Below the pieces are notes generated by a model, which saw only the letters and a list, made by a program, of their open reading frames with translations, searched no databases and had not been told where the DNA came from. This document shows, in pieces, positions 1 to 62,794 of a stretch of DNA of 64,000 nt; position 1 is the stretch's first letter; each line of letters opens with the position of its first letter. The stretch is from Nemertoderma westbladi (lineage: Eukaryota; Animalia; Xenacoelomorpha), in contig JAUCBJ010000412.1 of NCBI GenBank assembly GCA_032718475.1, forward strand, positions 37,414-101,413, read 5' to 3'. The translations under genes and the position numbers were made by a program.

Positions 1-13
1 GGCAGTCGGCACT

Positions 14-1084
14 ATGTATGACGCCTGTCTGGTTTGCAAGAGGGTGAACGCCAGAGTATTGGAACAGGAGATGGCTGAACTCCCGGAAGCGAGAGTGCAG
101 GCATATGACCCACCCTTTACGAACACAGGGGTGGATTGTTTTGGTCCGATTGAAGCAAAGAGTGGACGGCTGACCCACAAGCGATGGGGTCTGCTACTGA
201 CATGCATGGCTAGTAGAGCCATACACATTGAGCGTGTGGCAGACATGTCGACCAAATCTCTGCTCCTGGCCTTGAAGAGATTTATGGCCAGGAGAGGACT
301 AGTAAAGGCGTTCTACTCCGATAAGGGTACAAACTTTGTCGGAGGGAATAGCGAGTTGAACGCGGCTCATAAAGCGGCACAGAATAAGGAAATTTCTGCA
401 GCACTTTTGCCGCAAAGAGTAGAGTGGAGATTTAATACTCCAGAAAGTCCTTGGAGAGGAGGAAATTGGGAGCGTTTAGTTCGCTCTGTGAAGCAGGCCA
501 TTGCTAAGACGTTGCCTGTAAACAAACAACTTACCGACGACGAACTGGTCACAGCTTTCATTGAAATCGAGCATACCCTAAACTCGAGGCCGATAGCTAT
601 GTTGCCAGACGGTGTTGCATTAACGCCGAATCATTTGCTAATGCAGAGTCCAGCATTTCTTGTGCCGGCATCAGAACCCGTTAGTGCCGACCTATATAGT
701 CGTAAGAGCTGGAAAATGACTCAATTAGTCGCGTACACATTCTGGGAATATTGGCGGGAATACTATCTTCCCACCATATCCACCAGAACAAAGTGGTACA
801 AAACGGTTCGGAGTCTCCAAAGGGGAGACTACGTACTGATAACCGAGCCGATTGTCAAGAGAAAGTATTGGGAGACAGGAGTGATCTTGCATATACACCC
901 AGACGTGCAAAACATAGTGCGCACAGTCACTGTGAAAATTAGGTGCAAGTGTCCGCACCCAAAAAAGTGTAAAACTAATGGTTTGCACACCTTGGACCGA
1001 CCGGTCCAAGATATTGTGTTATTAGAGGAGACACGTATCGAGACGGGAGATTATAATTTGTCTCCTGCCTCTAAACTGAATTAG
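14..1084 (+). CDS. BEL/Pao LTR retrotransposon pol C-terminus (integrase), truncated by window start
   Basis: End of zinc-binding domain (CLVC), DDE core GVDCFGP / YSDKGTNF / GGNWERLV, LNSRP, and the FW..W..EYLP...R.KW C-terminal block typical of BEL/Pao. Confidence 0.95.
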   Translation: MYDACLVCKRVNARVLEQEMAELPEARVQAYDPPFTNTGVDCFGPIEAKSGRLTHKRWGLLLTCMASRAIHIERVADMSTKSLLLALKRFMARRGLVKAFYSDKGTNFVGGNSELNAAHKAAQNKEISAALLPQRVEWRFNTPESPWRGGNWERLVRSVKQAIAKTLPVNKQLTDDELVTAFIEIEHTLNSRPIAMLPDGVALTPNHLLMQSPAFLVPASEPVSADLYSRKSWKMTQLVAYTFWEYWREYYLPTISTRTKWYKTVRSLQRGDYVLITEPIVKRKYWETGVILHIHPDVQNIVRTVTVKIRCKCPHPKKCKTNGLHTLDRPVQDIVLLEETRIETGDYNLSPASKLN

Positions 1085-1846
1085 TGTTGGACGCAACTCA
1101 CTTCGTATGCATTCCTCGTATGCAAATACAAGGAAATGCATAGGAGCGGGGTTGTGGTGATTTGCGTTGAGTTTTGTCTAGTGGGTATCAAAACAAAATT
1201 TTATTTTCAAAAATTTTGAAAAATTTAAAATTTTAAAAAATTAGAAGTGAACCCAAGACAATTCCAGACGCTGTGTATAGACGCGTTTTAGAATTCGTCT
1301 ATAGATAAACAGTAATTTGAAAAGTCGTGAAGCCTGGAAAATAGCATTTAGAAACCATGGTGACGGCTATATTACGTAGGAGTGTAAATTGAGTTTAGCA
1401 ACTTCCACAGATTGGTGCCAACAGTGCAACTAAGGTGCTAAAGGTTAGTAGCACCAGAGGCGTACATGGACCCCACTCAGTAGTTTGCAGGATGTGTGAT
1501 GTTCGATTATCAAACCTGTGGGTTTGGTATAGTCGAGTATTGTGGCTATAGTCCTTTCTAACTACTGTAGTTTAGTACGAGTAATGGGAGTAGTTTGGGC
1601 ATCAAAAAGTGAGTTGGTCACGGCCAGTTTATCTCCAAAGTTTTTGCGCTATGCATGGGAATAGGTTAGAGGATAGTTAGTTAGGAAGAGACGGGATCTA
1701 GAGAGTCGAACCTGAACTGCTGGAAGGCGGGGGGGGGGGTTCGGGAGGTCTGTCCTTCGGCGACATCTAACTGATTTACCCATAGTGTAATTGGTTACGT
1801 AACGGCACTTATTGGGATATATATATATGTATATACGCGAGGCATA

Positions 1847-4800
1847 ATGGAGAGGGATATTAGAGCGCAACCGCGCAGAGGATTTACTGCCAGAGAGGAG
1901 GCGGAGCTACCATTCGCGCGACCAGGATGTAAAGACTCTAACGTTTACTACCATGGGCGGTCCGTGATGGAGCTAAACGGGAAATACAAGCCGAGTTATG
2001 ATAAAGAATTACGGAGGGAAAGAATGAGAGCGTTGGGGGACCGGATGGAAGTTTTGCGGAGAGAGTATCGCACGCGGTATCCCTACGACTTCGCTTTGGA
2101 CGTGTGTGACATCAGCGCAGATCCGGACGAGGAAATCGCATGACTATACCATATGAATATGTATTTACGACATGAGGAGCCTCTACCTGCAGTCTGAGAC
2201 CAGTTCGACGGAATGCATCTATACCGGAGGACTCGAGGTGAGGATCAGGAGACGCCGAAAGTCTTCAGCGTATACAAGCTCTTCTACAAGTGTGGTGAAT
2301 GCATGAATAAACAAGATGTGGCGATTCCCGACCGATTAGACGAGCAACATCCGGAACCGATATTAACGCGATGTCCAGCTCACCAATTCCTTAGATACAA
2401 CGAGGGAGGTTACCCGATGAGCAACCCGATGATCAGTATCGACTTCAGCGGAAAGCGACCTCCGAGACCCATTACGCCGACCGTTACGACATTGGATCCG
2501 TATACGGAGATTAAACCCTGTTCGACACCCAGTTTGATAGAGACGGCAGCGGCCATTTCGCTGTACCGAGCCTACAAGGATCTAGAGGCGCGGCGCGAAG
2601 CGGCGCGGGACTCGGGTACCAAACCCGCGGGTTTGGAGCTCTCGAGTCCCTGGACTGCGTTTACTTCACCTCACCGAGTGAGAAGCCTCACGCCTGAGCA
2701 TCAGGACGACATAGACGCGTTGCGGCAGGAGGAGCGAGCGGCGAAGGCGAAAGAGTTATTTGAGAACAGGATAGCGGAGTATAATAAGACCGCGGATAGA
2801 CATCAAGAGGAGACGAGGAGAGTGACCGGATTTGTTCCACAGGTCGCATCTCAACCCGGACCGGTGTATTATTCCGACGGCACCGAACCTGCGATATTAG
2901 TAGATCATCCGGAGTTGCGAGAAGCGATACGATTCTTGCCGATGGTAAGAATGGCGGACCATTGGAACGTTGACTGTCTACGGGAAGTTTTATGCGCGAA
3001 GTTCTTGCGTGATGTCCCAATGCAGATCACAGATTACGACACGTTGGATAAGATTGGAGCTCCGGGGAAGGAGAGTAAGCTATTCGGATGGTTGGATAAG
3101 TACATCAAGGTATGGGTCGCGGTGGCTACATTCCCAGATGACGAGGAGGTAGACCAGACGTGGCTGAGGAGGAAGGGTTCTTATACCCGATATGATGACC
3201 ACAAGGCTATCGAGCGCATGTGGACCCCATCAGACGAGATTCAGCGTCAGTGGAGGAAAACGGAGGAATCACTGCAGGATTGGAGGGTGATGTTCTACGA
3301 CAATGAAGGAGGGTCCCATCAGGAATGTTTGACCAGCAAGTGTATTCAAATTCGTGCGGCCGATGGTGTGACTCATGTGTTTATGCGTGTGAGGGCGGAT
3401 CGAGAGAGACCGGAGCCCATCATAACGACACAATATCGGAAGGGGAAGGATCCTAGGGAACAGATTTTGGAGGTATGCAGGCGAGGAGGTATGCACGGAG
3501 CGGAGCGTATCGACGCCAGGATGCTACCCAAGAAAGTTAGAGAGGCTATTCTCAACCAAGATTACGTCAAGGTGGGATCGGGAGTCCAGAGTGATTTGGA
3601 GAGCGACTTCAACGCCATGACTGATCTGGAAGATAGATTGCCGAGACCGTTTGTCGACACCAAGCTATTGTTGCTATGGGCACAGGATATTGGAATTTAT
3701 AGGGAGTATCCCAACTCTGCCAAGACTGGTATTGGCTTTATAGTACACTTGTTGTATAATTGGGACTTTAAGTTAAAGACGCAGAAGAAGTACGAGGAGG
3801 CGTATGGTGAATACAACACGCCACCGGGAGCGGAGTTCAAATCCCACTTCAAGCGGCAAGCGTTAGTGTATTGGAACATTTGCGCGCCACCCCGTGCGTC
3901 ACTACAATATTATTTGGTGCTTGAGTCGAACACGGTGACTTGTTTATGAGCGGATATCGTTGCGCGAGTTTTGAAGCGTCATCCATTGGTATTCGGAGGA
4001 GATCAATACGTTCGCTCGAAAGGGGGAATCCAATCCGACGTGATGAAGCGTTTCTTAACCCCGTTCTTCAAGCAATCGTTAGAGAATACGTCGATGGTTA
4101 GGAGAGGATTAGCGATATTCGAAGGAGTATATCGACAGAACATCGGAGATTTGGGAGACCGACCGTCGATGGAATATCCGACGCCAGAAGCTTTGGAGAA
4201 GTGGTTCGGGCATCAAACCCGCGGGTTTGGTACTCCCTTCCACTCGGAGGCTGATAGACCTGTTAAGGAGGGCTGGCCGGAGACGTTAGTAGAGGTGTTC
4301 GGAGTAGATCTTCCGGTGGAGAAGACATATCCGAAACGAACGCAGGAGGAAATATTGGAGATAGAGGACAAGGGCGAGGATGTTTACTTTGTTCCGGATC
4401 GACAACCGTTGACCGGAGAGGACGACATCGTATTAGACATTGGGAAGGAAGGAAGTGCGAAACCGATTGGAGACCTCATATACGAGAGGGCCTGGTTTCC
4501 ACAAGCGCGTAGGTGCAAATTGTGCGGCAGCACAAGGCACAATCTAAAGTCGTGCGACGCGGTAGTAGAGGCGGCGCATAAGGTCTGTCGTTGGTGTAAT
4601 GAGACCGACCATTCGTTTCACACGTGCACCGTCTTCATTTCTCAATGTGGATATTGTGGGGTAAAGGGACATCGTAGCGCGAGATGTCAGCTGCGAGATG
4701 ATTCCTTTCAAAACCATAGCGCTAACCTACTTCGGGAGATGTTAGATAAGTGGGAGGGTGTGGCCGATTACCATATTCAAGTGCAGATGCGTTGGTTACC

Positions 4801-5491
4801 ATTTAAAGCGGGATATGGGTTTTGGGCGGTAGACCCATCGCATGTTGCGTACGAGCCATATCTACAATCGCTACCACAATATCAGGAGCTCATCCTAACT
4901 GCTCAAGACCTTCCACAGAACACTGGAGTTATCGTAGTCCGAGAATACTTCAGACAATTGAACATGGACAATAAGTACACATGGAACTTCGTTGCTATTT
5001 GCGATCGCATCACGAAGGGTGTATTTACGGAGACTAGAAAAGTGGTACGCGCGCGAGGTGATTGGAGGATGGCGGCTATACAATACCGCAACGAATTCTT
5101 GTTGACTCATGTGCCAGTGGGTTCATTGACCGCTGAGAGGATACAGGAGCAAAGGATCGCAGCGACCACAGCGACGACCGCTGGAGCTCAAGGCTTGCGG
5201 AAAGAACCAGGAGGAGGGGTCCAAGACAAGCGTCAAGTCAAGGACGACCACTACCACTCTATTATAGAAGCACAGAGGTTGCAGCGCAAGGCGCAGGGGG
5301 CGTCGGAGAAGGCGCGAGTGCAACTGCATAAGGAAGAGTTGGCGGAAGCGACCACGGGAGCGCGACAATTGGGACGAGGCCGAGGAAGAAGCACAAGCCG
5401 GGAGTCTGTCGGGGCTCAGGGAACGTCGTCGCCGGTTCCGGGAGTGACGCCTCACGGACGCCGTCAACGGAGTCGACTGGAGGTAGATTAG
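1847..5491 (+). pseudogene. Accessory ORF of the BEL element: DEDDy (WRN/RNase D-like) 3'-5' exonuclease plus three CCHC zinc knuckles, interrupted by three in-frame TGA
   Basis: ORFs 1847-2143, 2213-3949 and 3971-5491 share one frame, broken only by TGA at 2141, 2195 and 3947. Exonuclease motifs: FYDNEG (ExoI), CIQIR, LPKKVREAILNQDYVKVGSGVQSD (ExoII), FVDT, W-x9-QYYLVLE (ExoIII, D to E). Knuckles: CKLCGSTRHNLKSC, CRWCNETDHSFHTC, CGYCGVKGHRSARC. Confidence 0.8.
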
Positions 5492-6048
5492 TGTATCTGG
5501 GAAGAGGGCGAAAGAGAGGAGCGAGCCCAAAGAACCCAGGAGCGGGTCGATAATACATTATAGCACAGGGCGACAGACTCTAGATATATACATCATCGTC
5601 GCTCTGATGTATATTGTAGCATTTGGAAATCTTCGACTAGACTCATATACACTAGTTGAGTTATTTTGGAATTTATATTATGAGAGAGGCGAAGGAAGTG
5701 ATTGGGGAGACAAACCTGCGGGTTTGGCTTACTCCTTTCACTTGCCCTAGCCAATTTTATATTTGATTTTGTATGTAGTAATCATTATGTAGTAAGAATG
5801 AACGAGAAACAATATTTTGTAAATTTAATTTGTATGTAATAATCGTTAAACAATGAGAGAGATAATATTTTTGTAAATTTAATTTGTATGTAATTCATTA
5901 TGCAATATCTATAGCAATATTTGTAAATAGTAGGATTTGTAGTATCAAGTGTTTAGATTGGTTGGAAGAAATTTATTTTGTTTTGTATACATCACCTTAT
6001 ACTCTTCTACAATTGGAGGGAAACATTGTATGATTTCCCTTGGAGCGG

Positions 6049-8222
6049 TGTTACGGTATATGGCGCTGTATCCACATTATTAGTCGTTATACTGTATGCA
6101 TTATTAGTCCGTTATGCAGTATGCAATATTAGTCCGTTATACTGTACGTAATATTAGTCCATTGTGCAGCATGATATTTTAGATAAGGCATAATAACGCA
6201 GTGGTATTTAGATAGGGAAATCGAAACACCCATATATTTGAATCCATCCATTTTGTATAGTATGTAGCCCTACCTACGTAATTTTGTATTAGGATATATG
6301 TAGATAGTTCCAGGGTAGCGAGTTTATTCGGACCCTGGATTTTGTGCTTGCTGATATTAGCATCGATAGGGCTAGCATATAGGGACGCTGTCCTGGCCAT
6401 TCAGCAGCCAGGGACGTGAACCATTACCATATATGGTAATAATTTGAGGTTTGGGCAAGCGATAGGGCTACAATCCGGCCTCCTTATTGGACTAACTGCT
6501 TCCAGGTTGGTCTAATGCTAGCACGGACTGGAGAGCCAATAGGAGAGCGATTGAGTCACCCTATTGCATCACCCCATCCGGATCACCTATAAATTGGCGG
6601 TGTGCCGGTAGAGCCTCACATGACACCTCACATGATCTGCTATCACCTTTGTACTTGTTGAGCTGTCTCTATTCAATTTTGACGGATATTTTAGCGTATT
6701 TTCTGCAATTTGCTAATTTTGATTAATTTCTTGGAATGATTTGCTAGTGCGATTACTCTCGATTGTGTTTCTCAATTAATTCCTTCGATTACTGCTAATT
6801 ACAACTGAACTATGATTTCTACTTTTGATTAATGGTTCTATGTGATTCCTTTCTGCGCAATAATCCTAAGGGATTTCTGAGACTGTCAGACTTTGTGATT
6901 TGCATGCGCCGCTACGGTAGCTATTAGCATAATGGAGGGCTAAGGTGCCAGTGGGCGGTGGGCACATCGGGGGGTTGAGCGACTAGGAGAGAGCGGAGGA
7001 TTCAAAGCGGGCAACGCTGGCTAGGGTCACCGTTGCGGGCGGGTATCTTGCACTGTAACACGCAGACCATTCGCCGATACAGTAACTAGGGGGCTGATGA
7101 TCCAGGTTTTGTCTCTATTTAGTATTAGGGGGGCAGGAATCGGGTTAGTTAGGAATCCTAGATGTATCCGGGAGAGGCCTGCGCGTACTACAACGTTGAG
7201 TGTAGAGTACGAGTAGTGAATCGCATAATTGTGGGCTATACAGTAGTTAACTGCATAATTGCGAACTGTGATTTCTGACGCTGATTGGTGTGTTATTGAA
7301 GTGTGCCTATGATTATGAATGTTTAGGTAGGCGCCCTTTTCTTTTGATTGATTTCTATTTCTTAGTTACAATAATTAGTTACTGATTAGGTCAAAGTAAT
7401 ACGGCAATTTAGGCTATTACTAGCGAAACCTGTTGCGTAATAAATTAGAATTACGTATTCTGGAACTCTTAGTAATTAGTACGCTGTTAAATATTTGTGA
7501 CTGTAATTGATTAGTAAAAATTAAGAATTAGTACGCAGCATAGCGGAGAGTAGCTAAGGTAATAATTAGAGTACTGTAAACTATTCACGCTGAGCGGTTA
7601 TTTGCACTAGCGGGCAATCAGCTAGATCGCACTATTCGGTACGCACGATACGCTAGTAATTTGCTGGCCTAAAGCCAGCCGCAGGCAAGTTTAGACCCAG
7701 AGTGGTACTATCCACGTAAAAACAATTACTGTATCATTTTGATTATTTTAAATATTCTCGCATTCACACATTACGTTAGGGAACCTCCAGTATTCGCGAT
7801 TAGAAAGACGTAGACAATAGCGTGTTTTAATAGTGATAGAATTAGGCGTAAGAATACTCTGAGTGCAAGGCCTCTCGCACTCGTCTTAAGTAAGCTTAGG
7901 GAGCCGACTCGGGTTTATTGTTTTGGTTATTCCCGCGTGGCTCATAGATTCGAACAGTTAGCTCTCTATCGAGCGATCGGTAGAGAAAGGAACAAGCGAT
8001 TTTGCAGGAGTTGTGTAAAATTAGTAAAATATATTAGCGGACGGCAGATTAGCGCCATCCAACGGTAAGTAGCGGTTTTGTATTTAGCCACCTTTACAAT
8101 TTAGTAATATCACGCTCCTGATCCCCTTTACTTAACAGTAGAGCATTCTTTGTGTCTTATTGGTTAGGCGAGAGCTCATTAGGTTGACAGAAGGATATTA
8201 ACGGGTATTGGTCTGTTCAACA
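6049..8222 (+). mobile_element. Putative 3' LTR of the BEL element (start well supported, end uncertain)
   Basis: PPT-like GGAGCGG (6042-6048) directly followed by TGTTAC, short ATTAGTCCGTTAT repeats, TATA-like CTATAAA near 6587. Candidate ...AACA ends at 7060, ~8137 or 8222. The 5' LTR is outside the window. Confidence 0.5.
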
Positions 8223-8829
8223 GTTCTGCTGTTAGTATAGAGGTCGCGGTTGTTTATCAAATTTAGTAAAAAATACGATACGAAAAATAGAAAGGCAATA
8301 AAGAATATAACCATTTATGTAACGCTTCATAAAGTACCACTTTATAGGAAAACAGTTGTTACTTGATTATTAATACGTAATTTAATTCAAAAATTGAAAT
8401 GTTTATTTTTGACGGAAAAATGTTCATGTTGATCTCATCACTTCGGCACATCGCCCGAAACACAGGAGATGACAACTACAACTGGAATTCCAAACCAACC
8501 AACAGTCTACTGGGTCTCAGATTGCTTCTACCCATCGTTTGAACTTCTTCTATAGGCTAAACCATAAGTAAACACGGACGCCGACTTCCGCTCATAGGAA
8601 TCGTTGACTCGGTGATTCGTGGACACTTTTGGAGACGCTATCCGAACTTTTACCAGATGGACGGAGTTCCGGTTTACTGTGTTGTCAACATCCATGACGC
8701 TTGCCAGAAATTGATCACTCTTCTCCGCCTGGAGGTTGGACTTTGGAAAATTAATCTGAAAAATAATATAGATAAATACACTAAAGATACAATAAATGAA
8801 GCATAATAAAGACGTAATAAAGAATACAG

Positions 8830-13690: not shown

Positions 13691-14339
13691 TACGTAGTAG
13701 GCCTAGGCCTACTTAAAGCCGTAAGCAATATGCAGATATGACCATAACTACAGAACAGACTGACAGAACTAACTAAATGGCAATTAAATATCAATTATTG
13801 CCCGGCACATAATAAAATACTGAATTGAAAATTTATAATCCGGTTCCGATCAAAATGTTAGTTCCGCTCGTTCCTTACCCCCCCCCCCCCCCCTTATACC
13901 TTATTACCTATATACTTTTATACGTGTCATACAGTCATTCATCTACCTCATACATACATCAACATCATACACATGCATTGCAGCATTACATACCGCATAC
14001 GGATACATTACCGAACGTAATCAGGATCGAATGTAACATAGTTATTACGTATCGAACGTAACCGCAATTATGTTACATTGGATCCTATAACTATGTTACA
14101 TTCGATCTACAAAAAAAAGAACTAAGCTCGAATGTAACATTGCCATTTACAGATTTAAAGGAGCAGGTTACAGAGGCGTGTTGGGGGAACCAAAACAATA
14201 AACGAAAGTTAACACATGTTACAATATTATGCAGGTTACGTTTATTTAAAGGCTGAATATAATTCAGAAACCAATAAGCAGATACTGAGACTCCTGCAAT
14301 GCTATGAGGATTCCGATAAGTATTTCCTGTTGTTGAGAA

Positions 14340-15709
14340 ATCCACAGATGCGCTTAAGGGATCGTTTCTCTAGCACAATGATAGATGGGTTAATACGCGT
14401 TGGAGGAAGACTAACTAATGCTCCATTATCCTTTGACACTAAGTTTCCCATACTCATTAGAAATCTTGAAATACAAATCAAGATGATTGTAGATGTTCAC
14501 AGTAAGCTTTACCATGCTGGTAGAGAACGAGTTCTTAGCGAAATTCGAACTCGCTATTATTTTCATAAACCCCGTAGAGCTCTGAACCAAGTTCTTAGGA
14601 ACTGTATACCCTGTAGGAAAGCATTCAGTAGGCCTTTAACACAGCGAGAGGCAGAATTACCTAGGGAACGAGTAAGCTTCTACGAACCACCCTTCACAAA
14701 TACCGGTGTTGATTTATTTGGCCCTATTGAAGTATATCGTGCTAGGACTATAGTCAAGAGATGGTGTGTCATCTTTGTCTGTATGACTTGTAGAGCTATC
14801 CATCTCGATATGGTGAACGATCTATCTACCAACAGCTTCATACTGAGCTTACGCCGACAGATCGCTCGCTTTGGAACTAGTAACACGATGAGATCTGATA
14901 AGAGAACGAACTTCATTGGTGCCAACAATGAAATCAAGGCTTACGTCAAAGATTGGAACCAAAGACAGGTGGACGATCAGCTAAGGGTAACAGCTTCTAG
15001 CTGGACCTTCAACGCCGCCGACGCCCCTTGGTGGGGAGGAAGTTGGGAGAGATTAATCAGGAGCGTGAAGACCGCATTTCACTTTATAGTGCCGTGCCGC
15101 GCATATCTCACCGACGAACTTTTGCGGACGTTAATGGAGGAAATCGCCGCCTATCTCAACGAGAGACCGCTTATGCCAGTCTCATCGAGTCCCGACTCCC
15201 TAGAAGCGCTAACACCCGCGCATTTCCTACTGAAGAAACCTGTAGCCATGCTCCCACGATCGGAAATCACGGACGGAGACGAATACTGCCGACAAACTTG
15301 GCAACTTATGCAGTTGTTATCCCGTCGATTCGCTGACCATTTCGAAAAACATTATCTGCCTACGCTACAACTTCGAACAAAGTGGTTTGCGCAGCAAGAA
15401 AACGTCAGTGCCGGAGACATGGTCCTTATTGTGGAATCAGATCTTCCACGTAAGCGGTGGCAGACAGGTCGTATCATCGAGACTCACATCTCAGATGATG
15501 GTTTGGTGCGATCGGTAGAACTCGTCGTCATGCGACGTAACTTTAAGAAACCGGGAATTGTCTTTGAGACGCAGCAGCTCAATCGCCCAGTTGGTCGTTT
15601 ATGTTTACTGGAAAGAGACAGTGAACTCTCCGGAAACTATGGAAGGCAAGATACTCTTCCTACGACCACTTCCCTAATCCGACAAATATCTAGGGACTCC
15701 ATAACGTAA
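14340..15709 (+). pseudogene. 5'-truncated BEL/Pao integrase (second family)
   Basis: DGLIRVGGRL, H-x4-H...CxxC, GVDLFGP, RSDKRTNF (G to R), GGSWERLI. The first ~40 codons of the tracked ORF 14216 appear to come from an unrelated repeat. Confidence 0.9.
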
Positions 15710-16030: not shown

Positions 16031-16913
16031 CAAGTATTATTGGTAAGTAGAGTATTAGGAATGCAAAGTTCAGATCCTCGTGTCTCAGCTAAACCAAGCT
16101 CTGGGTAGACCTTGGAAACGACTTGCCTCTTCACACTGACATTGCTTCGTGCGATATTGCTCCTCTACCTTATATTAAATAATACATATAGTAGCGTGAT
16201 GTCCCCTTAACAGTAGCGTAAAACGCAAAATAAATCTGTTGAACCCTTTGACCATCTGCAATTCTAGTCGATTAAGATATCGCGGCACCCACCGATATAC
16301 TTGAAAGACAAAATTCTAGAATCAATGGTTAACGTCCCCAGACAAGTTCTGGAATAAACCGGTGCCCATCTTAAATATTAACTATTAATATTTATAAAAT
16401 ATGTCAAACAAATACAATAGAGTAAATACTTACAACTGAAACAACTGAAATAAATGTATGTTACATTCGGGCTTAGTAGCCTAATTTGTAGATCGAATGT
16501 AACATAGTTAGTTATAGGATCCAATACATAATTGAGGTTACGTTCAATTCGTAAAAACTATGTTACATTCGATCCTGATTACGTTCGGTCTGTCACCCAC
16601 CGCATACTGGTATAGGCCTACAATATTACATACCGTATTACAAATAGACAGTACATTTTACAATACCATTCGGATGTCTTGTCTATTTCCGTGAATAGGG
16701 TATAGGGCCTTCGCCGTCACTTTGATAAACATAACATAAGTATTGAAGTTAGTCAGTGTATTCCTCTGTTAGCTACTACTGCCAGACTGCTACGTGGTGC
16801 TACGTACGTCCTCAGTTATTTCCAGGTTAGTTTGTGTATATGCGAATTCGCCATCAGTGCGTCACTTAATATTAAAGTTACATTGGACAAGGACTCGATA
16901 TAAAACAAATAAT

Positions 16914-17729
16914 ATGCTTAGGTATATGAACAAAAAAGATGGGAAAGAGGCGAAGGTATTTAATAATGTAACAGAGGGGTTGAAGCATTTATATGACACC
17001 AGAATTTATCCTCTAGAAGAGCACTATAAGTTCAATGAGTTCCATTCTCCCTTTCTTTCCGACTCAGACTTCACGGCTAAACCGATGGTACTCGTCGTAG
17101 GTCAATATTCAACCGGGAAGACCACATTCCTCCATTACCTATTGGAGGAAAAGATCCCACACTCTAAAATCGGTCCGGAGATGACGACGGATAAATTCCA
17201 CGCGATTCAATTCGGTGAACACGAAGGCCACATCCCAGGGAACGCGTTGGTACACGATAAGAAACGACCGTTCGCGAGTTTATCTCTGTACGGGAACTCC
17301 TTCCTTAACCGGTTCCACTGCACTGTCATGCCTAACCAGGTGCTCGAGTCTATCAGTCTGGTAGATTCGCCCGGGATCCTATCGGGAGAGGAGCAGCGTC
17401 TCGATCGCGGATACGATTTCACCGCGGTCCTCACCTGGTTCGCACACCGCGTCGACCGCATTATTCTACTGTTCGACGCTCACAAACTCGATATCTCCGA
17501 CGAGTTCAGGCGGGCGATCCAGGCCTTGAAGGGCAACGACGATAAGATCAGGATCGTGCTTAACAAAGCTGATCGCGTCGACGATCAGGAGCTCATGCGG
17601 GTTTACGGGGCGTTGATGTGGTCGTTAGGGAAGGTAATAAACACGCCGGAGGTTGCTAGGGTATACATCGGTTCCTACTGGGACCATCCTTTGCACATAG
17701 ACACCAACAGGAAGCTGTTTGAGAAGGAG
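16914..17729 (+). CDS. EHD1: EH-domain-containing protein (EHD1/Past1/RME-1 family), exon 1
   Basis: P-loop GQYSTGKT, DSPGILSG, DAHKLDISDEF, LNKAD. Phase-0 donor GTCAGT at 17730. Confidence 0.95.
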
Positions 17730-18507
17730 GTCAGTCTAATAACTAACATTAAACGTTTATCCTGGAGCCTATTTTAGTTGTTTATTTATGTAGCTGGCTG
17801 ACTGTTAAACTATTAATGGTTTACTAATAGTAACAACAACTACAAATATTTTTTCACGTACCGGTACCGGTAGCTTTTGAGAGTAGATATGATAGGCCTA
17901 TTAATTTCTCCTACACTAGACCAAGCGCAAGCGGCAGCTTTGTCTAGGGGTCAGGAGGAAATGGGAACTAGAGCAAATTGGGAAGCAGAGGAAGCAAAGA
18001 CACCCTGGGACCCTGGTTATATTGGATGGGAATACCGTATAGTACATATTTATTCGGTGGAAGATCTCCCATAGTGGTGAGCAGACATTCCTTAATGAGC
18101 CTACAATATTCCTCCATTTATTTATTAATCAGTGTTAAATACCTCTTATTTATTGCTACCTTTTTATTAGGTATATAATCAAATCATTGATTAAACTGGG
18201 ACCAGTAAGTAAGAGTTAACTAGTTACTAGGAAATAGTGCCATTACTACCCCGGTAACACTCAGACCGAGTATGAGTGTTTCCGTTGATTTTTATCTAGT
18301 CGCTCTGCAGTTCGTTTTTCCGATTGAAAGATGAAAGATGACGTTGTGACTTGTAAGGATCCCAAATATATACTAAAATTTAAATTTTAGCTGTAAATGT
18401 TACAAGCTTGGTGGGACTACTGAGACACCACTAATGCTGTACCTATAGTGTCTGGAGCTGGTTCATTGTATTTGACTCAATGGACTAGGCAGTTTTATTC
18501 TACATCC

Positions 18508-18660
18508 CTAATGTGACTTCCAAACCCTGAACACTTCCAATGGTGCCCATGTCTCCCCCTTACGTTTACGAAGGTCTTCACTTGACTTCATCATCCATGA
18601 TGCCAAGTGGCAGAAGTCATCCACGTGCTCAAGCACACCACCCGTAGATCTTATGCTCAT
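18508..18660 (-). mobile_element. RTE-type LINE RT fragment in the EHD intron
   Basis: LEHVDDFCHLASWM..SSEDLRKRKGETW resembles the LE.VDDFKYLGSW motif. Confidence 0.7.
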
Positions 18661-19297
18661 ACGATCAAAGTTGAAGAAGAAGAACATCACAACCCCCTGT
18701 TAGTCAGTATGTCGGTACATTCAATTATCACGAAGAAGAAGAAGACTGGCTAAATAATGAAAGCAATAAATACAATTCAGACGCACCCACTGTGGAGGAG
18801 GGAGGTGAAACTATGTCTGTTTCTAATTTCATGCAATCTAATCTTATTGCGATTTTTTTTACAAGATCCTGTCACTACCCCCAATCACCTTTTGCGATTT
18901 TATCTATAATTAATTATAAATTTTTGATTTTCCGATATGGGATGTATCTTAAAAGCACTTACCGTCTCTAATTCAATAAATAGTCAGTGCACCCTGGGAT
19001 GAGGCTTAAGGCAGGGATTTTATTTAGACCTAAATTTGTGCTTGTTAGAGAATGATTGAAGAGATTATGTGTCTAACTTCCCTCTCAATGTAATATGATT
19101 TTTAGGTACATTAAACTCCATATCACCTTTACTGTCTACAGTATGAGTGTCGGCAGTATGAATGTTTGTGTTTAGATATACTTGGTGTTGGTGTGGGTTG
19201 CCTGTAGTTAAATTACGGTGAGGATTAGCCTAGATAATCTTGTCTGAGATGTGGTGTATTTAATTATCACTAATGTATATATGCACACGAAAAAAAA

Positions 19298-19542
19298 GGG
19301 GGGGGGGGGGGGGGGGCACAATTCACATCTTGGCGAATTCATATCTCGCATCAATGTTATTCTCTCAATTTAGGGAAAGGAGTAGTTAGCAGTTTACCGT
19401 AATTCTAACCAAAACAATAAAGGAATCCCAACAGATAAGGTTTTATTTTTGGGAGTAATCAACTGTTATTTGCATAGAATTTCCCTTGGAGTGTGGTGAA
19501 TTTATATTGTGTCGAAATCCCCCCCCCCCCCCCCCCCCCCCC
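19298..19542. mobile_element. ~245-bp G-run/C-run-terminated MITE, copy 1
   Basis: Colinear with copies at 24457-24701 and 59804-60047. Confidence 0.75.
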
Positions 19543-19629
19543 TTATCTGATGTACACAATGTCTGTGTGTCAATCTATCCTAGTTTACAGTTTCACAGAG
19601 TTTTAAATGGATTATTATTATTATTTTAG

Positions 19630-20430
19630 AGAACTGATCTGTTTGACGATCTTAAAAGCCTCCCTAAGAACGCGGCGGTTCGGAAACTAAACGATCTTAT
19701 TAAACGCTCTCGTCTCGCCATCGTCCACGCGCACATCATCAGCAGCCTCAGGAACGATATGCCGTCGATGTGGGGCAAAGAGAAAGCCAAACAGAACCTC
19801 ATTGATAAATTACACGAGACCTTCTTTCGGATCCAGAAAGAAACCAACGTTTCTGCCGGTGACTTTCCCGACATCCATCAGATGCGCGAGAAACTAAAGG
19901 ACTACGACTTCAGCAAGTTCCACCACATGAACCAGAAGCTCGTCAACCGAGTTCACGACATGTTGAGCTCGGAGATCTCTCAGCTGATGGCGTTGATACA
20001 GTCGGAAGAGCAGCAGTCGACACCGCAGGAGCGCCGGGTGCGGGGTGGGGCGTTCGAGGGCGAGGAGGACTCGCCCTTTGCCGCGGGCTACGGGGAGGGT
20101 ACGGGAGCGGGTCTGGGGGAACAGCGGTGGATCGTTGAGGACAATATGAACAACTACGAGCGGTTGTTCGACAGTCTGGGCCCGATAGACGGACGGGTCA
20201 GTGGCGCCGCCGCCAAGAAGGAGATGTTGAAGTCGAAACTCCCCAACACTCTCCTCGGGAGGATCTGGAAACTCTCGGATATCGACCGGGATGGTATGCT
20301 CGATCTGGAGGAGTTTGGATTGGCTATGCATCTCATTAACGTAAAGTTGGAAGGACATGATCTCCCTTCTTATGATAAACTACCGGGCCATTTAATTCCG
20401 CCAAGTAAACGAGGTTTCATAAATGATTGA
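19630..20430 (+). CDS. EHD1: EHD family protein, exon 2 (helical region and EH domain); total ~538 aa
   Basis: Acceptor TTTTAG at 19629, then in-frame RTDLFDDLKSLPKNAAVRKLNDLIKR and EH domain KSKLPN..LGRIWKLSDIDRDGMLD..EF...LIPPSKR. Confidence 0.95.
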   Translation, partial: RTDLFDDLKSLPKNAAVRKLNDLIKRSRLAIVHAHIISSLRNDMPSMWGKEKAKQNLIDKLHETFFRIQKETNVSAGDFPDIHQMREKLKDYDFSKFHHMNQKLVNRVHDMLSSEISQLMALIQSEEQQSTPQERRVRGGAFEGEEDSPFAAGYGEGTGAGLGEQRWIVEDNMNNYERLFDSLGPIDGRVSGAAAKKEMLKSKLPNTLLGRIWKLSDIDRDGMLDLEEFGLAMHLINVKLEGHDLPSYDKLPGHLIPPSKRGFIND

Positions 20431-46188: not shown

Positions 46189-49100
46189 TTATAGGTGCTG
46201 TAGGAGGTGCTTTTTCAGGTTTTTTGAAAACATTGCTATTGTTTTTTTTTTCCTAATCATCACCGGGATCTCGTTCCAAATAGACGGACCAAGATAACTA
46301 AGAGAGCGTTGAGTTGAGCTGAGACGTACTAGTGGAAGTTGAATATTCCCTTGGGTGGCTGATCTTGTATTATAATTATGGCAGTCTTTAATTTTATTGA
46401 AAAATAGCTTTGAGATATTTGTAGGGGCTAAATTGTTGTTACATCTGTATACAAACCTACCTATTTCGTACTTATAAAGCAAATCTAAGGGAAGGATATT
46501 TAATGATTTGTAAATGGGATTTGCCGATGAACGATGGTGGCTGAAGGTAATACATCGTAATAATTTATTGATTTTTATTCTGAGTGGTTTAATAATGCTT
46601 TCATAAGTTCCCCCCCAAAGTATGATTCCGTAAATTAAGTATGGGTGAATTAAAGAAAAATAAAGTAATCTTAAGATATTTAATGGGAATATATGCCTCA
46701 GTTTGAAAAATATACCAGAAAATTTTGAAATTTTTTTAGTTATGTATTGAATGTGACTTCTCCAGTTTAATTTATTATCCACCCACACCCCTAAAAATTT
46801 AGTTACATGTACTTGTTTTATTTTATTGGTGTTAATATGTACTATTGGCGTATTTGTAAAGTCTTTTAAAGTATATGAAAACAATTCGTATTCAGTTTTT
46901 GATAGATTTAAAGATAATTTATTGTCGATTAACCAATTCGAAATTTTAGCTAGTTCACAGTTTGTGGCTTCAATTAAAACATTAATATTATTATTTGATG
47001 TATAAAGGGTAGTATCATCTGCAAAAAGGGTACAGTTAAGATTTGTTGCATTGGGTAGATCGTTGATGTAAAGTAGGAATAAGTTTGGTGACATTATACT
47101 ACCCTGGGGAACCCCACAAGCCAGTGGTAAATTTATTGAATTGCAATCATCTATGGAAACGTATTGAAATCTGTTTGATAAAAAGTTTGAAATTAGGTCG
47201 TGAGGTTTTCCTCTTATGCCATAGTTGAGTAATTTATTTTTAAGAATTTTGTGATCTAAAGTATCATATGCTTTTTTTAAATCAATAAAGATAGCACTGG
47301 TTGTGTGTTTGTGTTCTAGAACATTTTGAATATGATTTATTACTGAGAGTAGAGCATCGGAAGTTGTTGTCTTAGGTCGAAAACCGTATTGTGAACTAGT
47401 CAAAATTCCAAACTTTAATATAAAAGACTGAAGTTGGTTATTTATTATTTTTTCAAATATTTTGCTAAGAACTGGTAAAAGTGAAATAGGACGGTAATTA
47501 TTTGGGTCGGTGGGGTCCCCCCCTTTAAAAGATGGAATAATTTTAGCAATTTTTAGAGAGTCGGGGAAGAAACCTCGTTGAATTGATAGATTTATAAGAG
47601 GAGCTAGGAGAAATGACAGAGGTTTAGCAGCCAGTATAAGAAGTTTAGTTGGAAATGTGTCATTGGTTCCTGATTTTGGATTTAAATGCAAGAGTTCATA
47701 TTCAACTTCCACCGGCGATGTCTCAACTAATGAGAACGAACTGGAGCTATTAAACTTAATATTCCGTGTTGGAGAGCGGTTTGATGAGGGAATTGAGCTT
47801 GCCAACTCTGGACCAATATTAGCGAAATGGGTGTTAAGAATGTTAGCAATTTTTAATTTATCTGTAAATGTTTCAATTTTATCCCCTTCTTTAACAGTTA
47901 TTTTTTTTGGAATGTTTAATTTTTTTTGTCTATTTAAAGCTGAGTTTATTATGAGCCAGGTTTTTCTAGTGTTGTTTGAATTTGATGTGAATTTGTTCGT
48001 ATAATAATTTTTCTCTGCAATTTTCAGGCATGAAGTTAATTTATTACGATATGTTTTAAATTTATTTAAGTTTTCTGTTGTGGGATTTTTTAAATATTTT
48101 CGGAATAATGTATTCTTCTTGCGGGAGCATTTTATTAAAGAGGTGGTTATCCAGGGTTTTTTGGGGGAATTGCGTTGACTTATTTTTTTTTTGGTTACAT
48201 GATTCGAACAAATGTTTTCTAGATTTTCATAAAATTTATTAAATTTTTCATTATCTGGTATTAAACTGGATTTGTAAGACCAAGAGCTTTCCAGTTTAAT
48301 ATCTTTTATGAATTTATCGGCCTTAAAATTTGAGTAATCAAAAATGGTATTGTGTGTTGGGTCTGAAAAATGGCAAGAACAGTTTCTAAAAATTGAAAAG
48401 CAAGGTAAGTGGTCCGATGTACCAATTTGCGCTAAGATTGTGCCTGCGGTTGTAAAAGAAGTTGTTATGTTTGTTATAATGTGATCAATTAATGAATCGT
48501 CTGAGCCTTCAACTCTTCTAGTAGCCGTTGTTATTAACTGGAGAAAACCGAAGGAATTTAATAAATTTGTATATTCACGTGCTTGGCAAGTATTTTTCAA
48601 TAAGTTTACATTTAGATCTCCTGTTAAAATTACATCAAGTTTTTTATTTGACAAATTTGCTAATAAAGAATCTAAAGAGTTTAAAAAACATTCAAATTTA
48701 ATTGCTCCAGTTCGGTAAATAGTTCCAATAATTAAGGGTTTTGCATTGCTTGTGCATTTGATCTCAATAAACACGTTTTCCAAACCCTCGACCCGTAAGT
48801 CAGGCCTTTGATTAACTTCATAATTTTCATTTACAAAAATTGCCGACCCGCCTCTCTTTGTTTCCCTACAATCTAAATATGGTCCCTTATATCCAGCAAT
48901 TTTGAAAAAATTTAATAGTTCTTCATCATCCTTTTTTACAAAAGTTTCGGTAAAAGTTAGAATATCTACTTTATTTTCAAGAGAAAGGAGAAAATCAATT
49001 GTTGGTTGAAAATTTTTGTTAAGACTTCTACAATTAAAATTCAGAACGGATAATGATTTTTTAGATAAATTTTTGTTAATTTCTTCATTTAACTGACTCT

Positions 49101-49479
49101 CTGAATAATCTCCTTTGTTGTGGTTAAGGTTGATGATATTGTCTTCAGGATCTATGAAACTAAAAGTTTGATTAACAATGTCACTCGGTTCATCATTCTC
49201 AGCTAGTGGTGAGAAGAAAATATCATCATCAGTTACATCAATACATGCAAAGGGGAAAATTTCGCAGTAACAAAAGTTACAATAGGTATCTAGGTTCGGT
49301 GGACGGTCAATAGTTTCACAAAGCATTTGGGATCCGCATGGTAAATGAAAACTCTTATTACACAAATCGCACTTAAATTTAGGTTCATGAGGAAATATTT
49401 CTGAAAAACAAAAATGACAATAATTTGTGGGTGAAATATTACTAAGGGCCGGAGGTGAAACATGATGTCTATTTGACAT
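46189..49479 (-). CDS. LINE ORF2: PHD-like zinc finger + APE endonuclease + reverse transcriptase
   Basis: CHFC..CDLC..H..C..CNFC; NCRSL, TETF, GDLN, SLIDH, SDH; YRPISLL, DLKKAYD, GVPQGS, FADDT, KFLG. Confidence 0.97.
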   Translation of the reverse strand: MSNRHHVSPPALSNISPTNYCHFCFSEIFPHEPKFKCDLCNKSFHLPCGSQMLCETIDRPPNLDTYCNFCYCEIFPFACIDVTDDDIFFSPLAENDEPSDIVNQTFSFIDPEDNIINLNHNKGDYSESQLNEEINKNLSKKSLSVLNFNCRSLNKNFQPTIDFLLSLENKVDILTFTETFVKKDDEELLNFFKIAGYKGPYLDCRETKRGGSAIFVNENYEVNQRPDLRVEGLENVFIEIKCTSNAKPLIIGTIYRTGAIKFECFLNSLDSLLANLSNKKLDVILTGDLNVNLLKNTCQAREYTNLLNSFGFLQLITTATRRVEGSDDSLIDHIITNITTSFTTAGTILAQIGTSDHLPCFSIFRNCSCHFSDPTHNTIFDYSNFKADKFIKDIKLESSWSYKSSLIPDNEKFNKFYENLENICSNHVTKKKISQRNSPKKPWITTSLIKCSRKKNTLFRKYLKNPTTENLNKFKTYRNKLTSCLKIAEKNYYTNKFTSNSNNTRKTWLIINSALNRQKKLNIPKKITVKEGDKIETFTDKLKIANILNTHFANIGPELASSIPSSNRSPTRNIKFNSSSSFSLVETSPVEVEYELLHLNPKSGTNDTFPTKLLILAAKPLSFLLAPLINLSIQRGFFPDSLKIAKIIPSFKGGDPTDPNNYRPISLLPVLSKIFEKIINNQLQSFILKFGILTSSQYGFRPKTTTSDALLSVINHIQNVLEHKHTTSAIFIDLKKAYDTLDHKILKNKLLNYGIRGKPHDLISNFLSNRFQYVSIDDCNSINLPLACGVPQGSIMSPNLFLLYINDLPNATNLNCTLFADDTTLYTSNNNINVLIEATNCELAKISNWLIDNKLSLNLSKTEYELFSYTLKDFTNTPIVHINTNKIKQVHVTKFLGVWVDNKLNWRSHIQYITKKISKFSGIFFKLRHIFPLNILRLLYFSLIHPYLIYGIILWGGTYESIIKPLRIKINKLLRCITFSHHRSSANPIYKSLNILPLDLLYKYEIGRFVYRCNNNLAPTNISKLFFNKIKDCHNYNTRSATQGNIQLPLVRLSSTQRSLSYLGPSIWNEIPVMIRKKKTIAMFSKNLKKHLLQHL

Positions 49480-49819
49480 AACCTAATAATAACTATAAAA
49501 TAAGTACCAGAATTACTCAACTCAAGTATTTGACAGCTTACCAGTAGGTACCAATACCAATACCAGTAGGTCTTGTAAGTAATTTTCCAAAAAAAAGAAA
49601 TCCAAAATAACCGCGCTAAAAATATGTAACATTTAATCACTATATTACATCGTATTTTCGTAAAGTACTTTGTATATATACGTACCGGAATTATGTTATT
49701 GATATAATAGGGTTGGTGCGGAAAAAAACATATTACAGTTTTAAGTAGGCCTAATTATGTTTTGTCTAACTTTTACATAACTGCTTTGGACAGGAATATA
49801 GGTCTATATCAATATATAT

Positions 49820-57028: not shown

Positions 57029-57850
57029 TTATATTTTTGTTTTGAATACGGCTAGAGAGTTAGTAATGTTGGCATTGTTCAGGCAATAGGACATAAACTC
57101 ATCGCAGGTGATGCATTCCCGTGCAGGATCGCCAGTTTTAGCAAAAAATTCGTCGACTACATTTACGATGGTGTCTTCTGTAAATACCGGCATGGTGTAT
57201 GATCCCAAAAGATCGTAGATCGATTGAACCGTGAAGCACATATCGTTGCGTGTGATAGAGCCGCTGTTTGAGCAATCGTACAGTTGGAAAATCCATTTCA
57301 ACTGCTCTTCCAGGTTCCCTCGTGTTAACAATGAAAGCACATTGAGAAAAGATTCAAAAGTCACATCCCCATTTTCATTTTTCTTCAGCGCACCGTATAT
57401 GAGTCCGCTGTAACGTTCAGTGCGGCCAAGTGGATGGATAACAGACATCATTGTCCCCATAGTATCTCTATCAACCACCCCTGTTGGACAATCCTGTTTG
57501 AATCCGCGGTAAATCTGTTGTATCTCTTTCCTTGTAAACTTTGTCGTCTTCAGCAGAGATTCTATCTGACACGGCTTGTAACGTGTTACCTCTATTTCGA
57601 TCTCTTTAGGATTCTCTTCAGCAATTAGGCCGAGGTTTCGCAGTCCGTTTTTTATTCCTTCTATAATTCCTCGGATCCCTGTTTCACGAGGCTCTTCCCA
57701 AGGTACGTAGACAAGAGGTTCACCGACGCCAACGGCCACAGTGCCAGTGAGAGCAACATCTTCTTCAATAGGTTCTATATTAAGCTGATCAGTTTCGATG
57801 GATTCAGGATGTTTATTGGGGCTCCTGCGATTGCGCGTCTCGGATGTCAT
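57029..57850 (-). CDS. KCNIP: Intronless, divergent KChIP/calsenilin-like neuronal calcium sensor
   Basis: TKFTRKEIQQIYRGFKQDCPTGVV, LSLLTRGNLEEQLKWIFQLYD, SIYDLLGSYTMP and NITNSLAVF align with the KChIP core. Confidence 0.9.
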   Translation of the reverse strand: MTSETRNRRSPNKHPESIETDQLNIEPIEEDVALTGTVAVGVGEPLVYVPWEEPRETGIRGIIEGIKNGLRNLGLIAEENPKEIEIEVTRYKPCQIESLLKTTKFTRKEIQQIYRGFKQDCPTGVVDRDTMGTMMSVIHPLGRTERYSGLIYGALKKNENGDVTFESFLNVLSLLTRGNLEEQLKWIFQLYDCSNSGSITRNDMCFTVQSIYDLLGSYTMPVFTEDTIVNVVDEFFAKTGDPARECITCDEFMSYCLNNANITNSLAVFKTKI

Positions 57851-61349: not shown

Positions 61350-61926
61350 TTTCTCACAACAACACTAAAGTTAAATTTTTCGCAGAAATATTTAAAACAA
61401 TGTTAACATTATTTTCTTTATCTAAAATTGAAATTTACATAATTTCGTAGGTACCGGTGCCGGTACCGGTACTGTAAAACAAGATGTATGTTATGTTTGA
61501 CTTTAAGCTTGCTTGTTTTTTTTGAATATTAATAAAATATGATTTTGAAAAAGTTTATCTTTAGTAAATAAAGTAAATATTTTCAAAAATATAAGCAATT
61601 CAGTTTATAAGTTGCGTTTGGATGAATTACAACTTAATGCTGATTATTATGTTGGTATATATGCAGAACAATTTCTTGTGAACATCGAGAGTGTTAACAC
61701 TTTCGCGGTCCTGTCACTATTCATATATGGGACCTTGCTAATAACATTTGATATTCGTTGATATTTCCTATTTTTACTACAAAATAGGAAATATTTTTCT
61801 GGTATCTCGGAAATATTTTAGGCATGGCGCATATATGATTCAGTGTGACGATCTTTCGAGGGTCCGACCTCAGAAGTTGAGTCAGAATTATTTAATTACT
61901 ATTGTCTTTTACGTATTTGTTTTTAG

Positions 61927-62416
61927 AATCCAATCTGGTATCAATGTAGACACCCAGTTGAGCGCTTTGGTAGAAGCTATGGAAGTCTGGGAGGAAGCCA
62001 CATGCGTTAGCTTCAGACCTTACAGTCTGGACCTACGGGAGAGTTTGGGTCACAACAACTACGTTACCATAACTGCAGACGAGGATGGCTGCTACTCTGA
62101 CGTGGGGGTGAACACAGTGGAAGGTAACATTGTCAATGTGGATCCTAAATGCAACGTTTTGGGGATACTGACCCACGAGCTGGGTCACACACTGGGTCTG
62201 TTTCACGAACAGAATCGATATGACAGGGATCAATTTATAGAAGTGCAATGGGACAATGTGAGGGACAGGATGAAGCACAATTTTGATAAGTTTGGCAAGG
62301 AGGTTATTAACACTTTGGGGCTGAATTATGATTATGGATCTATAATGCATTACCGTGGTACTTCCTTCACGAAAAATGGAAACAATACAATATTGACGAA
62401 GGATGCACAATACCAG
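61927..62416 (+). CDS. Astacin exon 2 (catalytic core)
   Basis: WEEATCVSF, GCYSDVG, HELGHTLGLFHEQNRYDRD, Met-turn SIMHY. Phases consistent. Confidence 0.95.
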
Positions 62417-62794
62417 GTTAGTTTGCTGAAAACGCAATACTGACAAAGGGCCGAATTTATCATGTTAATTAAAAAAAAATCAATATAGACAATATTTGAA
62501 AAATACCTCTTTAATTTGCCAGAAATGGGCGCTTTAAATATTTCACTATTTTGGTTAAATAATGTGTTACAGCCACTGAAAAATTGTTTAAACTAAAGAG
62601 GCGGTAGTAACAGATAGCTGCAGATGTACACTCCCCACTCCCCACCCCAGGTACACCCCTACTACGTTTAACTGAAACGTCGCTCGTTACACCACAGCAG
62701 CCCGTGGTGGGAAGTGTGTTGCATGTGTTTATACTGCAGTTTTAAGTTAAGTTAAGTATAATTATATTTATAAATGTATCTGTTATTATTTTAG

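What the first reader, a model, noticed from the sequence alone, without database searches (positions are those of the whole stretch)
1501..5745. Four stem-loops capped by the same palindrome CAAACCCGCGGGTTTG across the accessory module
Seen: the motif occurs at 1511 (CAAACCTGTGGGTTTG), 2620, 4214 (both perfect) and 5711 (CAAACCTGCGGGTTTG), 1.1-1.6 kb apart. The two coding copies lie in different reading frames (TKPAGL vs QTRGFG), so conservation is at nucleotide level. Each sits at the apex of a longer, unrelated stem (e.g. GGGACTCG...CGAGTCCC at 2607-2650; AAGTGA...TCACTT at ~5696-5743). Inference: a repeated cis-acting RNA element, such as a self-complementary kissing-loop dimerisation/packaging signal or the binding site of the element's own zinc-knuckle protein (Rev/RRE-like logic).
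Basis: partly seen in the sequence, partly recalled or inferred. Interest (0 to 1): 0.78.

Follow-up and report, generated by a model that had tools for sequence, protein, structure and literature searches.

The report
Four matched hairpins in retrotransposon RNA
A jumping gene in an animal genome carries four copies of the same 16-letter motif, each topping a predicted RNA hairpin of the same shape, and these likely act as docking sites by which the element's own zinc-finger protein would recognise its own RNA.

Summary
CAAACC-YGYG-GGTTTG occurs four times in 64 kb (0.15 expected), all in the post-integrase accessory region of a BEL/Pao LTR retrotransposon. The stems are not unrelated: all four predicted hairpins resume pairing in one register (-4 with +6, two extra bases on the 3' side), against 0 of 25 unrelated viral sequences with the same 17-mer. 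Five of 10 lower-stem pairs change on both sides among the four copies. In sister copies of hairpin 2, no variant of 1% or more falls in the 16-mer, 0 of 13 paired or loop third codon positions vary against 11 of 32 in the flanks, and changes sit in or beside the internal loop or turn G-U into A-U. Selection is therefore likely on RNA structure. The accessory frame (three stops here) encodes a DEDD-type exonuclease-like domain and three CCHC knuckles. Best reading: knuckle-binding tetraloop hairpins that tag the element's RNA (Rev/RRE- or psi-like logic); binding and function are untested. Dimerisation and host-adaptor binding remain open. No matching report in my paper searches, Rfam or this scan's earlier notes.

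The parts
2..1084 (+). 3' end of BEL/Pao pol: integrase plus DUF5641, cut by the window start
   Evidence: Pfam DUF5641 E 4.7e-18; listed relatives are 36-42% identical and nearly all carry PF05380 and PF18701
1496..1546 (+). Hairpin 1, non-coding; cap 1511-1526, loop UGUG
1767..1785 (+). Candidate branch point (CTAAC) and 3' splice acceptor upstream of the accessory ATG; inferred from sequence only
   Evidence: pattern scan, (one of two such matches between 1085 and 1850)
1847..5491 (+). Accessory reading frame of 1,214 codons, broken in this copy by TGA at 2141, 2195 and 3947; ends in an Arg/Ser/Gly-rich tail
2607..2650 (+). Hairpin 2, coding; cap 2620-2635, loop CGCG
3281..3946 (+). DEDD-type 3'-5' exonuclease-like domain (candidate ExoI D-x-E at 3299-3307; E in place of the last D)
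   Evidence: profile of homologues scores the window protein at 50 bits; family profile hits EXD2, E 1.9e-5
4201..4243 (+). Hairpin 3, coding; cap 4214-4229, loop CGCG; weakest lower stem
4514..4687 (+). Three CCHC zinc knuckles (C-x2-C-x4-H-x4-C at 4514, 4586, 4646)
   Evidence: family profile hits Lin28 and retroviral NC structures
5694..5746 (+). Hairpin 4, 3' non-coding; cap 5711-5726, loop UGCG
6041..6060 (+). Short purine-rich tract and TG start (6049) of the likely 3' LTR; LTR end not fixed
   Evidence: sequence; read depth rises from 6046

Best explanation
Shown: the motif, its confinement to the accessory region within this window, its invariance among sister copies at hairpin 2, and the exonuclease-like plus three-knuckle frame. 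Predicted: a 6-bp upper stem closed by C-G, a YGYG tetraloop, a 3x5 junction with two extra 3' bases, and a lower stem. Inferred: the invariant loop Gs (positions 2 and 4) fit knuckle pockets as G218 does in the RSV UGCG loop; the accessory protein is the likelier binder than Gag because the hairpins lie within and around its own gene; the Arg-rich tail would contact the bulge or act as a nuclear signal; four sites would give avidity and redundancy. My split: RNA structure under selection about 0.85; protein site rather than self-pairing about 0.65; binder encoded by the element about 0.5.
For: Same register in 4 of 4 hairpins; 0.7-2.8% per hairpin under two flank-randomising nulls, joint about 1e-6 allowing any offset (feature chosen after seeing it); 0 of 25 distinct viral sequences with the same 17-mer show it. 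Lower stem: 5 of 10 pairs change on both sides across the four copies, covariation score reached by 0 of 500 shuffles. Sister copies: 0 of 24 listed variant rows fall in 2620-2635; those inside hairpin 2 are 2615 (G-U to A-U, changes the amino acid), 2617, 2618, 2638 (internal loop) and 2619 (pair next to it); third positions 0 of 13 versus 11 of 32, Fisher p 0.013. A 1,164-letter diverged record aligns only over 2585-2653 in that call, with no listed change in the cap; records in two runs have loose ends at both 5681 and 5743, the bounds of hairpin 4. Plus strand folds better than minus in 4 of 4, with 14 G-U pairs in all. Knuckles resemble Lin28 and NC, including RSV NC 2IHX; RSV NC binds a UGCG tetraloop through G218 (PMC5035970, PMC7599994 passages). 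An LTR-retrotransposon accessory protein needed for RNA export exists (CERV, PMC10309623 abstract).
Against: No binding or expression data. Only hairpin 2 was tested at 1% depth; for the others 40 of 429 variant rows were visible. Contig variants are related by descent, not independent. The structure was derived from these same four sequences. Hairpin 3 is weak (z -1.0) and supplies most unpaired cells. Some derivatives skip hairpin 2 (1731-3719) or hairpin 3 (2653-5060, 3170-4661), so single hairpins can be lost. In RSV the UGCG loop matters for NC binding but not for Gag specificity, and a 2-nt loop change did not affect packaging. Three of four hairpins lie downstream of the candidate acceptor, which suits neither a genome-only packaging signal nor an intron-only RRE. 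The DNA around seven distant homologues could not be fetched, so co-occurrence of hairpins with the protein is untested.
Confidence: 0.5

Rival explanations
1. The caps are dimerisation signals: self-complementary loops kiss and convert to extended duplexes between two genomes, or pair within one RNA.
For: All three loop types stay self-complementary with G-U; predicted homodimers are 7-18 kcal/mol more stable than two monomers. MoMuLV SL-D kisses through two G-C pairs and DIS-1/DIS-2 form extended duplexes (PMC7599994 passages).
Against: Any hairpin with such a loop gains by homodimer formation in this calculation; heterodimers gain 0-10 kcal/mol only. UGUG has no C-G to kiss with. The HIV-1 DIS loop holds a 6-nt palindrome; these loops hold 4. 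Known signals lie in the 5' leader, these in the 3' half. The one-sided G is unexplained by self-pairing, although DIS stems do carry conserved bulges.
Confidence: 0.2
2. The hairpins are bound by a host RNA-transport or export factor, as the I factor uses Egalitarian-BicD to reach the oocyte.
For: Egl signals have upper and lower helices of at least 6 bp with 3'-strand bulges and work in pairs (PMC13186709, section 8 part 1 and passages); the predicted shape here matches that outline.
Against: Presence of Egl in this host was not tested.
Confidence: 0.15
3. The motif is a DNA-level site: an inverted repeat with a 4-bp spacer bound by a dimeric transcription factor, or a single-stranded DNA hairpin used in reverse transcription.
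For: Half-sites are perfect and variation falls in the spacer, as in dimer sites; DNA hairpins also fold (-8 to -23 kcal/mol).
Against: A double-stranded site does not explain the shared lower-stem register, both-side changes, G-U pairs or the plus-strand bias.
Confidence: 0.08
4. The four copies are functionless remnants of a small duplicated or inserted hairpin.
For: Flanks are alike in register, so common descent is likely.
Against: Two copies sit in a coding frame in different phase, the cap is invariant while neighbouring third positions vary, and lower stems diverged while keeping pairs.
Confidence: 0.04

Closest known systems
RSV psi SL-C UGCG tetraloop and HIV-1 psi hairpin GGAG loop bound by NC zinc knuckles (PMC5035970, PMC7599994; passages read)
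   Same: Hairpin tetraloop with exposed G; hairpin 4 has the same UGCG loop; the element encodes NC/Lin28-like knuckles.
   Different: Four dispersed copies over 4.2 kb in the 3' half, two inside a coding frame, rather than one compact 5' leader signal; candidate binder is a separate accessory protein.
Rev/RRE-type systems and Cer1 CERV (PMC10309623; abstract and passages read)
   Same: An LTR retroelement with an extra protein, from a spliced mRNA in Cer1 and perhaps here, that could act on its own RNA.
   Different: CERV has a Cys-rich, possibly C4 finger and the paper gave 0 hits for 'exonuclease', 'stem-loop' and 'cis-acting'. The RRE is one branched element (recalled); here there are four separate hairpins.
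DEDDy exonuclease ORF3 of bdelloid rotifer Juno and Vesta LTR retrotransposons (PMC5408684; passages read)
   Same: An RNase D-like exonuclease ORF after pol, with one acidic motif residue altered (DEED there).
   Different: Those are other LTR lineages; 'CCHC' and 'stem' had 0 hits in that paper. Here the domain is joined to three knuckles and flanked by repeated hairpins in a BEL/Pao element.
Egalitarian-BicD localisation signals, including the I-factor ILS (PMC13186709; section 8 part 1 and passages read)
   Same: Two helices separated by a 3'-strand bulge; more than one stem-loop per transcript.
   Different: Egl signals lack a shared sequence and need U-A pairs; these share an invariant 17-mer cap.
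MoMuLV DIS-1/DIS-2 and SL-C/SL-D dimerisation hairpins (PMC7599994; passages read)
   Same: Palindromic hairpins able to form extended duplexes.
   Different: Clustered in the 5' leader and not sequence-identical repeats; here dispersed 3' of integrase.

Membership tests
BEL/Pao LTR retrotransposon | Pao-type pol (Peptidase_A17 region, integrase, DUF5641) | tested here: met
   DUF5641; listed relatives carry PF05380 and PF18701; RT and gag lie outside the window
BEL/Pao LTR retrotransposon | Two LTRs with target-site duplication | not testable with these tools
   Only a candidate 3' LTR start at 6049; the 5' half is outside the window and no genome is held
NC-binding psi tetraloop (RSV SL-C, HIV psi hairpin) | Tetraloop with exposed guanosines | tested here: met
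   Predicted YGYG loop, G at 2 and 4 in 4 of 4
NC-binding psi tetraloop (RSV SL-C, HIV psi hairpin) | Location in the 5' leader | tested here: not met
   All four lie 3' of integrase; further copies in the unseen 5' half cannot be excluded
NC-binding psi tetraloop (RSV SL-C, HIV psi hairpin) | Specific knuckle binding and a packaging effect | not testable with these tools
   needs binding assays
Rev/RRE-type export system | Element-encoded RNA-binding accessory protein | tested here: inconclusive
   Three CCHC knuckles and an Arg-rich tail are present; RNA binding is inferred
Rev/RRE-type export system | Response element confined to unspliced RNA | tested here: inconclusive
   Only hairpin 1 lies upstream of the candidate acceptor at 1785; splicing is not shown
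Kissing-loop DIS | Self-complementary loop of about 6 nt, Watson-Crick | tested here: not met
   4-nt loops; 2 of 4 need G-U pairs
Palindromic extended-duplex DIS (MoMuLV type) | Can form an intermolecular duplex | tested here: inconclusive
   Predicted for homodimers, weak for several heterodimers
Egalitarian localisation signal | Two helices of at least 6 bp with a 3' bulge | tested here: met
   Predicted in 4 of 4, lower helix interrupted in hairpins 3 and 4
Egalitarian localisation signal | U-A pair at the ED2 site; loop sequence free | tested here: not met
   Cap pairs are C-G and A-U only and invariant; the ED2 site could not be mapped exactly
Any Rfam family (including SECIS and ribozymes) | Covariance-model match | tested here: not met
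   0 matches to E 5 over 1000-8500
DEDD/DEDDy exonuclease | ExoI D-x-E, ExoII D, ExoIII Y-x3-D | tested here: inconclusive
   One alignment places D-x-E at FYDNE, another misses it; ExoII D present; ExoIII reads Y-x3-E; structure models failed

The most novel reading that the evidence does not exclude
A BEL/Pao retrotransposon has evolved a self-recognition system: its accessory exonuclease-plus-three-knuckle protein reads four dispersed, identically capped and bulged hairpins, two of them threaded through its own coding sequence, to protect or export its own RNA while the nuclease acts on untagged RNA such as host silencing RNAs. It would be a Rev/RRE-like pair of independent origin with both halves identifiable from sequence.
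Probability: 0.3. Interest if true: 0.82.

Novelty: new variant of a known kind. Interest (0 to 1): 0.62.

Why it matters
Cis-acting RNA signals of BEL/Pao elements did not turn up in my searches, and the role of exonuclease ORFs captured by LTR retrotransposons was left open in PMC5408684. Here a short, sharply defined RNA module and a small candidate binding domain lie in one element, so the pairing can be tested with oligonucleotides and one protein fragment. If it holds, it shows how a high-copy invertebrate retrotransposon tells its RNA from the host's, and gives a compact repeated RNA tag with its reader.

Tried and rejected
No genome is held for this window, so motif counts inside versus outside the family are limited to 64 kb; a covariance model found no fifth copy there (best other plus-strand hit 12.5 bits against 58-69). 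Word-based protein searches found no relative of 2213-3946 and only a seed sequence for the family profile; the full HMMER search gave 7 relatives at 26-32% identity, none with a usable name or organism. Two metagenome scans fetched no locus and an alignment query was too variable. The Atlas was unavailable. Both structure predictions were poor (pLDDT 34 and 42) and the fold search gave nothing under E 0.001. No RNA holder was listed; X4 is only guessed to be RNA, so expression is untested. SECIS was considered because of in-frame TGA and AAA near the loop, and rejected: no GA quartet in the folds (consensus recalled) and no Rfam match. CpG decay as the source of the TGTG and TGCG loops is disfavoured: CpG observed/expected is 0.83-1.19 across the element and a record from another run carries 1244-1523 unchanged (possibly the same locus). 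My first reading that the nuclease had lost its first catalytic motif came and was withdrawn. Earlier-findings look-ups by sequence and by words returned nothing; the six by place concern other features.
Full report
Observation. The 16-mer occurs at 1511, 2620, 4214 and 5711 and nowhere else in the window at up to 3 mismatches; chance gives 0.15. Relaxed patterns add no fifth copy, nor does a covariance model of the four. Each is predicted to cap a hairpin with a 6-bp upper stem and a four-base loop, UGUG, CGCG, CGCG or UGCG, and the cap holds in 216-nt context and in a local fold of the whole 1085-6048 region.

Setting. The window opens inside a BEL/Pao integrase with DUF5641. After it comes one frame of 1,214 codons, 1847-5491, broken in this copy by three TGA stops, then a likely 3' LTR from 6049. 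A search of 1.84 billion proteins gave 7 relatives with an exonuclease-like region and CCHC knuckles. Their profile hits EXD2 (E 1.9e-5), Lin28 and retroviral NC, and a profile of their exonuclease parts scores the window protein at 50 bits. Catalytic residues are probably present, with E at the last position; two alignments disagree on the first motif. Sequencing runs hold the region at summed depths of tens of thousands beside single contigs of depth 8-23, which suggests a large family, although the tool warns that this is no copy number.

In 4 of 4 hairpins the lower stem begins with base -4 paired to base +6, leaving two extra bases on the 3' side. With the cap fixed and flanks shuffled or drawn from the element this happens in 0.7-2.8% of 1,000 trials per hairpin, and all four sharing any one offset has probability about 1e-6 (the feature was picked after seeing it). 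As a natural control, 32 viral loci carry the 17-mer; of 25 distinct ones 15 fold the cap and 0 show the register. Across the four hairpins 5 of 10 lower pairs change on both sides and 89% of cells pair; the structure was derived from these sequences, so the test leans in its favour. A G follows the cap in 4 of 4 copies while the base before it varies.

Sister copies. Laying four runs on 2530-2730 at 1% gave 24 variant rows, none in 2620-2635. Within hairpin 2 the changes are 2615 (G-U to A-U), 2617, 2618 and 2638 (internal loop) and 2619 (the pair beside it, a position that is also unpaired in hairpin 4). Third codon positions vary at 0 of 13 paired or apical sites, 2 of 2 internal-loop sites and 11 of 32 flanking sites, p 0.013. 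I limited the flanks to 2560-2700 because the edges under-report: 2548 is listed but not. Three of the changes alter amino acids while keeping the fold, so the constraint is not on the protein. A diverged 1,164-letter record aligns there only over 2585-2653, with 10 differences of which 5 are listed and none in the cap; the other 5 lie unlisted, probably near the ends, and could include stem positions. Records in two runs have loose ends at both 5681 and 5743, the bounds of hairpin 4. For hairpins 1, 3 and 4 only 40 of 429 rows were visible and none fell inside a hairpin, where about 1.5 would be expected, which is weak. Against strict need, three shown joints skip hairpin 2 or 3.

Mechanism. 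Structure-level selection on the sense RNA is well supported: G-U pairs, plus-strand bias in 4 of 4 and both-side changes argue against a double-stranded DNA site. An invariant cap with a fixed-distance bulge and free lower-stem sequence is what a protein-binding site looks like. The loop keeps G at positions 2 and 4. RSV NC binds G218 of a UGCG tetraloop at 217-220 (PMC5035970 and PMC7599994, passages), and HIV-1 NC binds G7 and G9 of its psi hairpin (that these are loop positions 2 and 4 is recalled). The element encodes three such knuckles between hairpins 3 and 4. I therefore favour knuckle binding that marks the element's RNA, by the accessory protein more likely than by Gag, at 0.5 overall. 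What the mark does is the weakest step. A candidate acceptor at 1785 would leave hairpin 1 in genomic RNA only and hairpins 2-4 in both RNAs, which suits a general 'self' tag for export, stability or protection from the element's own nuclease better than selective packaging. The RSV data also show that NC-binding loops need not decide packaging.

Rivals. Dimerisation stays possible because C-to-U loop changes keep G-U self-pairing and homodimers are predicted to be stable, but the loops are short, the location is atypical and heterodimers gain little. Host Egalitarian-type transport fits the bulged two-helix outline (PMC13186709, section 8 part 1) but not the invariant cap. A DNA site and neutral remnants explain little of the pattern.

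Known and new. Parts have precedents: DEDDy ORFs in rotifer LTR elements (PMC5408684, passages), an export protein in Cer1 (PMC10309623, abstract and passages), a short expression element in ERVs (PMC8579622, abstract only). It works like a psi or RRE-type site but fails the location test for psi and the loop test for a classic DIS, so I do not file it under either. The exact motif had 0 papers, 'Belpaoviridae' with 'stem-loop' and 'accessory' had 0, searches listed nothing on such an element by title or abstract start, and Rfam had no match. The library lacks most subscription papers and no supplements were read, so a description in a repeat database or an older paper cannot be excluded.

Verdict. 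A real, selected, repeated RNA module in a BEL/Pao element, better defined than first described; binder and purpose inferred. New variant of a known kind, interest 0.62.

Noticed in passing
window 1847-5491: What ORF listing shows as three ORFs is one frame with three TGA stops; an exonuclease-like domain plus CCHC knuckles recurs in 7 unnamed proteins of 514-727 aa with no Pfam hit above a curated cut-off, an apparently undescribed family.
   Followed up: partly
window 1989-2322: A deletion variant seen in three runs loses a net 327 bases, a multiple of three, and touches no hairpin.
   Followed up: no
window 2582-2603: No variant of 1% or more is listed over these 22 bases just upstream of hairpin 2, where a small GC-rich hairpin is predicted; the conserved structure may be larger.
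   Followed up: no
window 5607-5686: Two of the 15 shown joints land at 5685 and 5686, at the foot of hairpin 4; none of the 15 removes hairpin 1 or 4 (12 more joints not shown).
   Followed up: no
window 1090-1155: A stable predicted hairpin directly after the integrase stop, followed by GGAGCGG, which also precedes the likely LTR at 6042; possibly a second polypurine-tract-like site.
   Followed up: no
window 14213-15709: A second, different BEL/Pao integrase fragment, lying between inverted repeats at about 14010-14140 and 16458-16589.
   Followed up: no
window 16773-20427: Exons of a host EH-domain (EHD) gene.
   Followed up: no
window 46192-49482 (-): An open 1,097-codon endonuclease plus reverse transcriptase frame of a LINE, set between two arrays of a 37-bp satellite.
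   Followed up: no
window 57032-57853 (-) and 61745-62440 (+): An EF-hand protein exon and an astacin protease exon.
   Followed up: no
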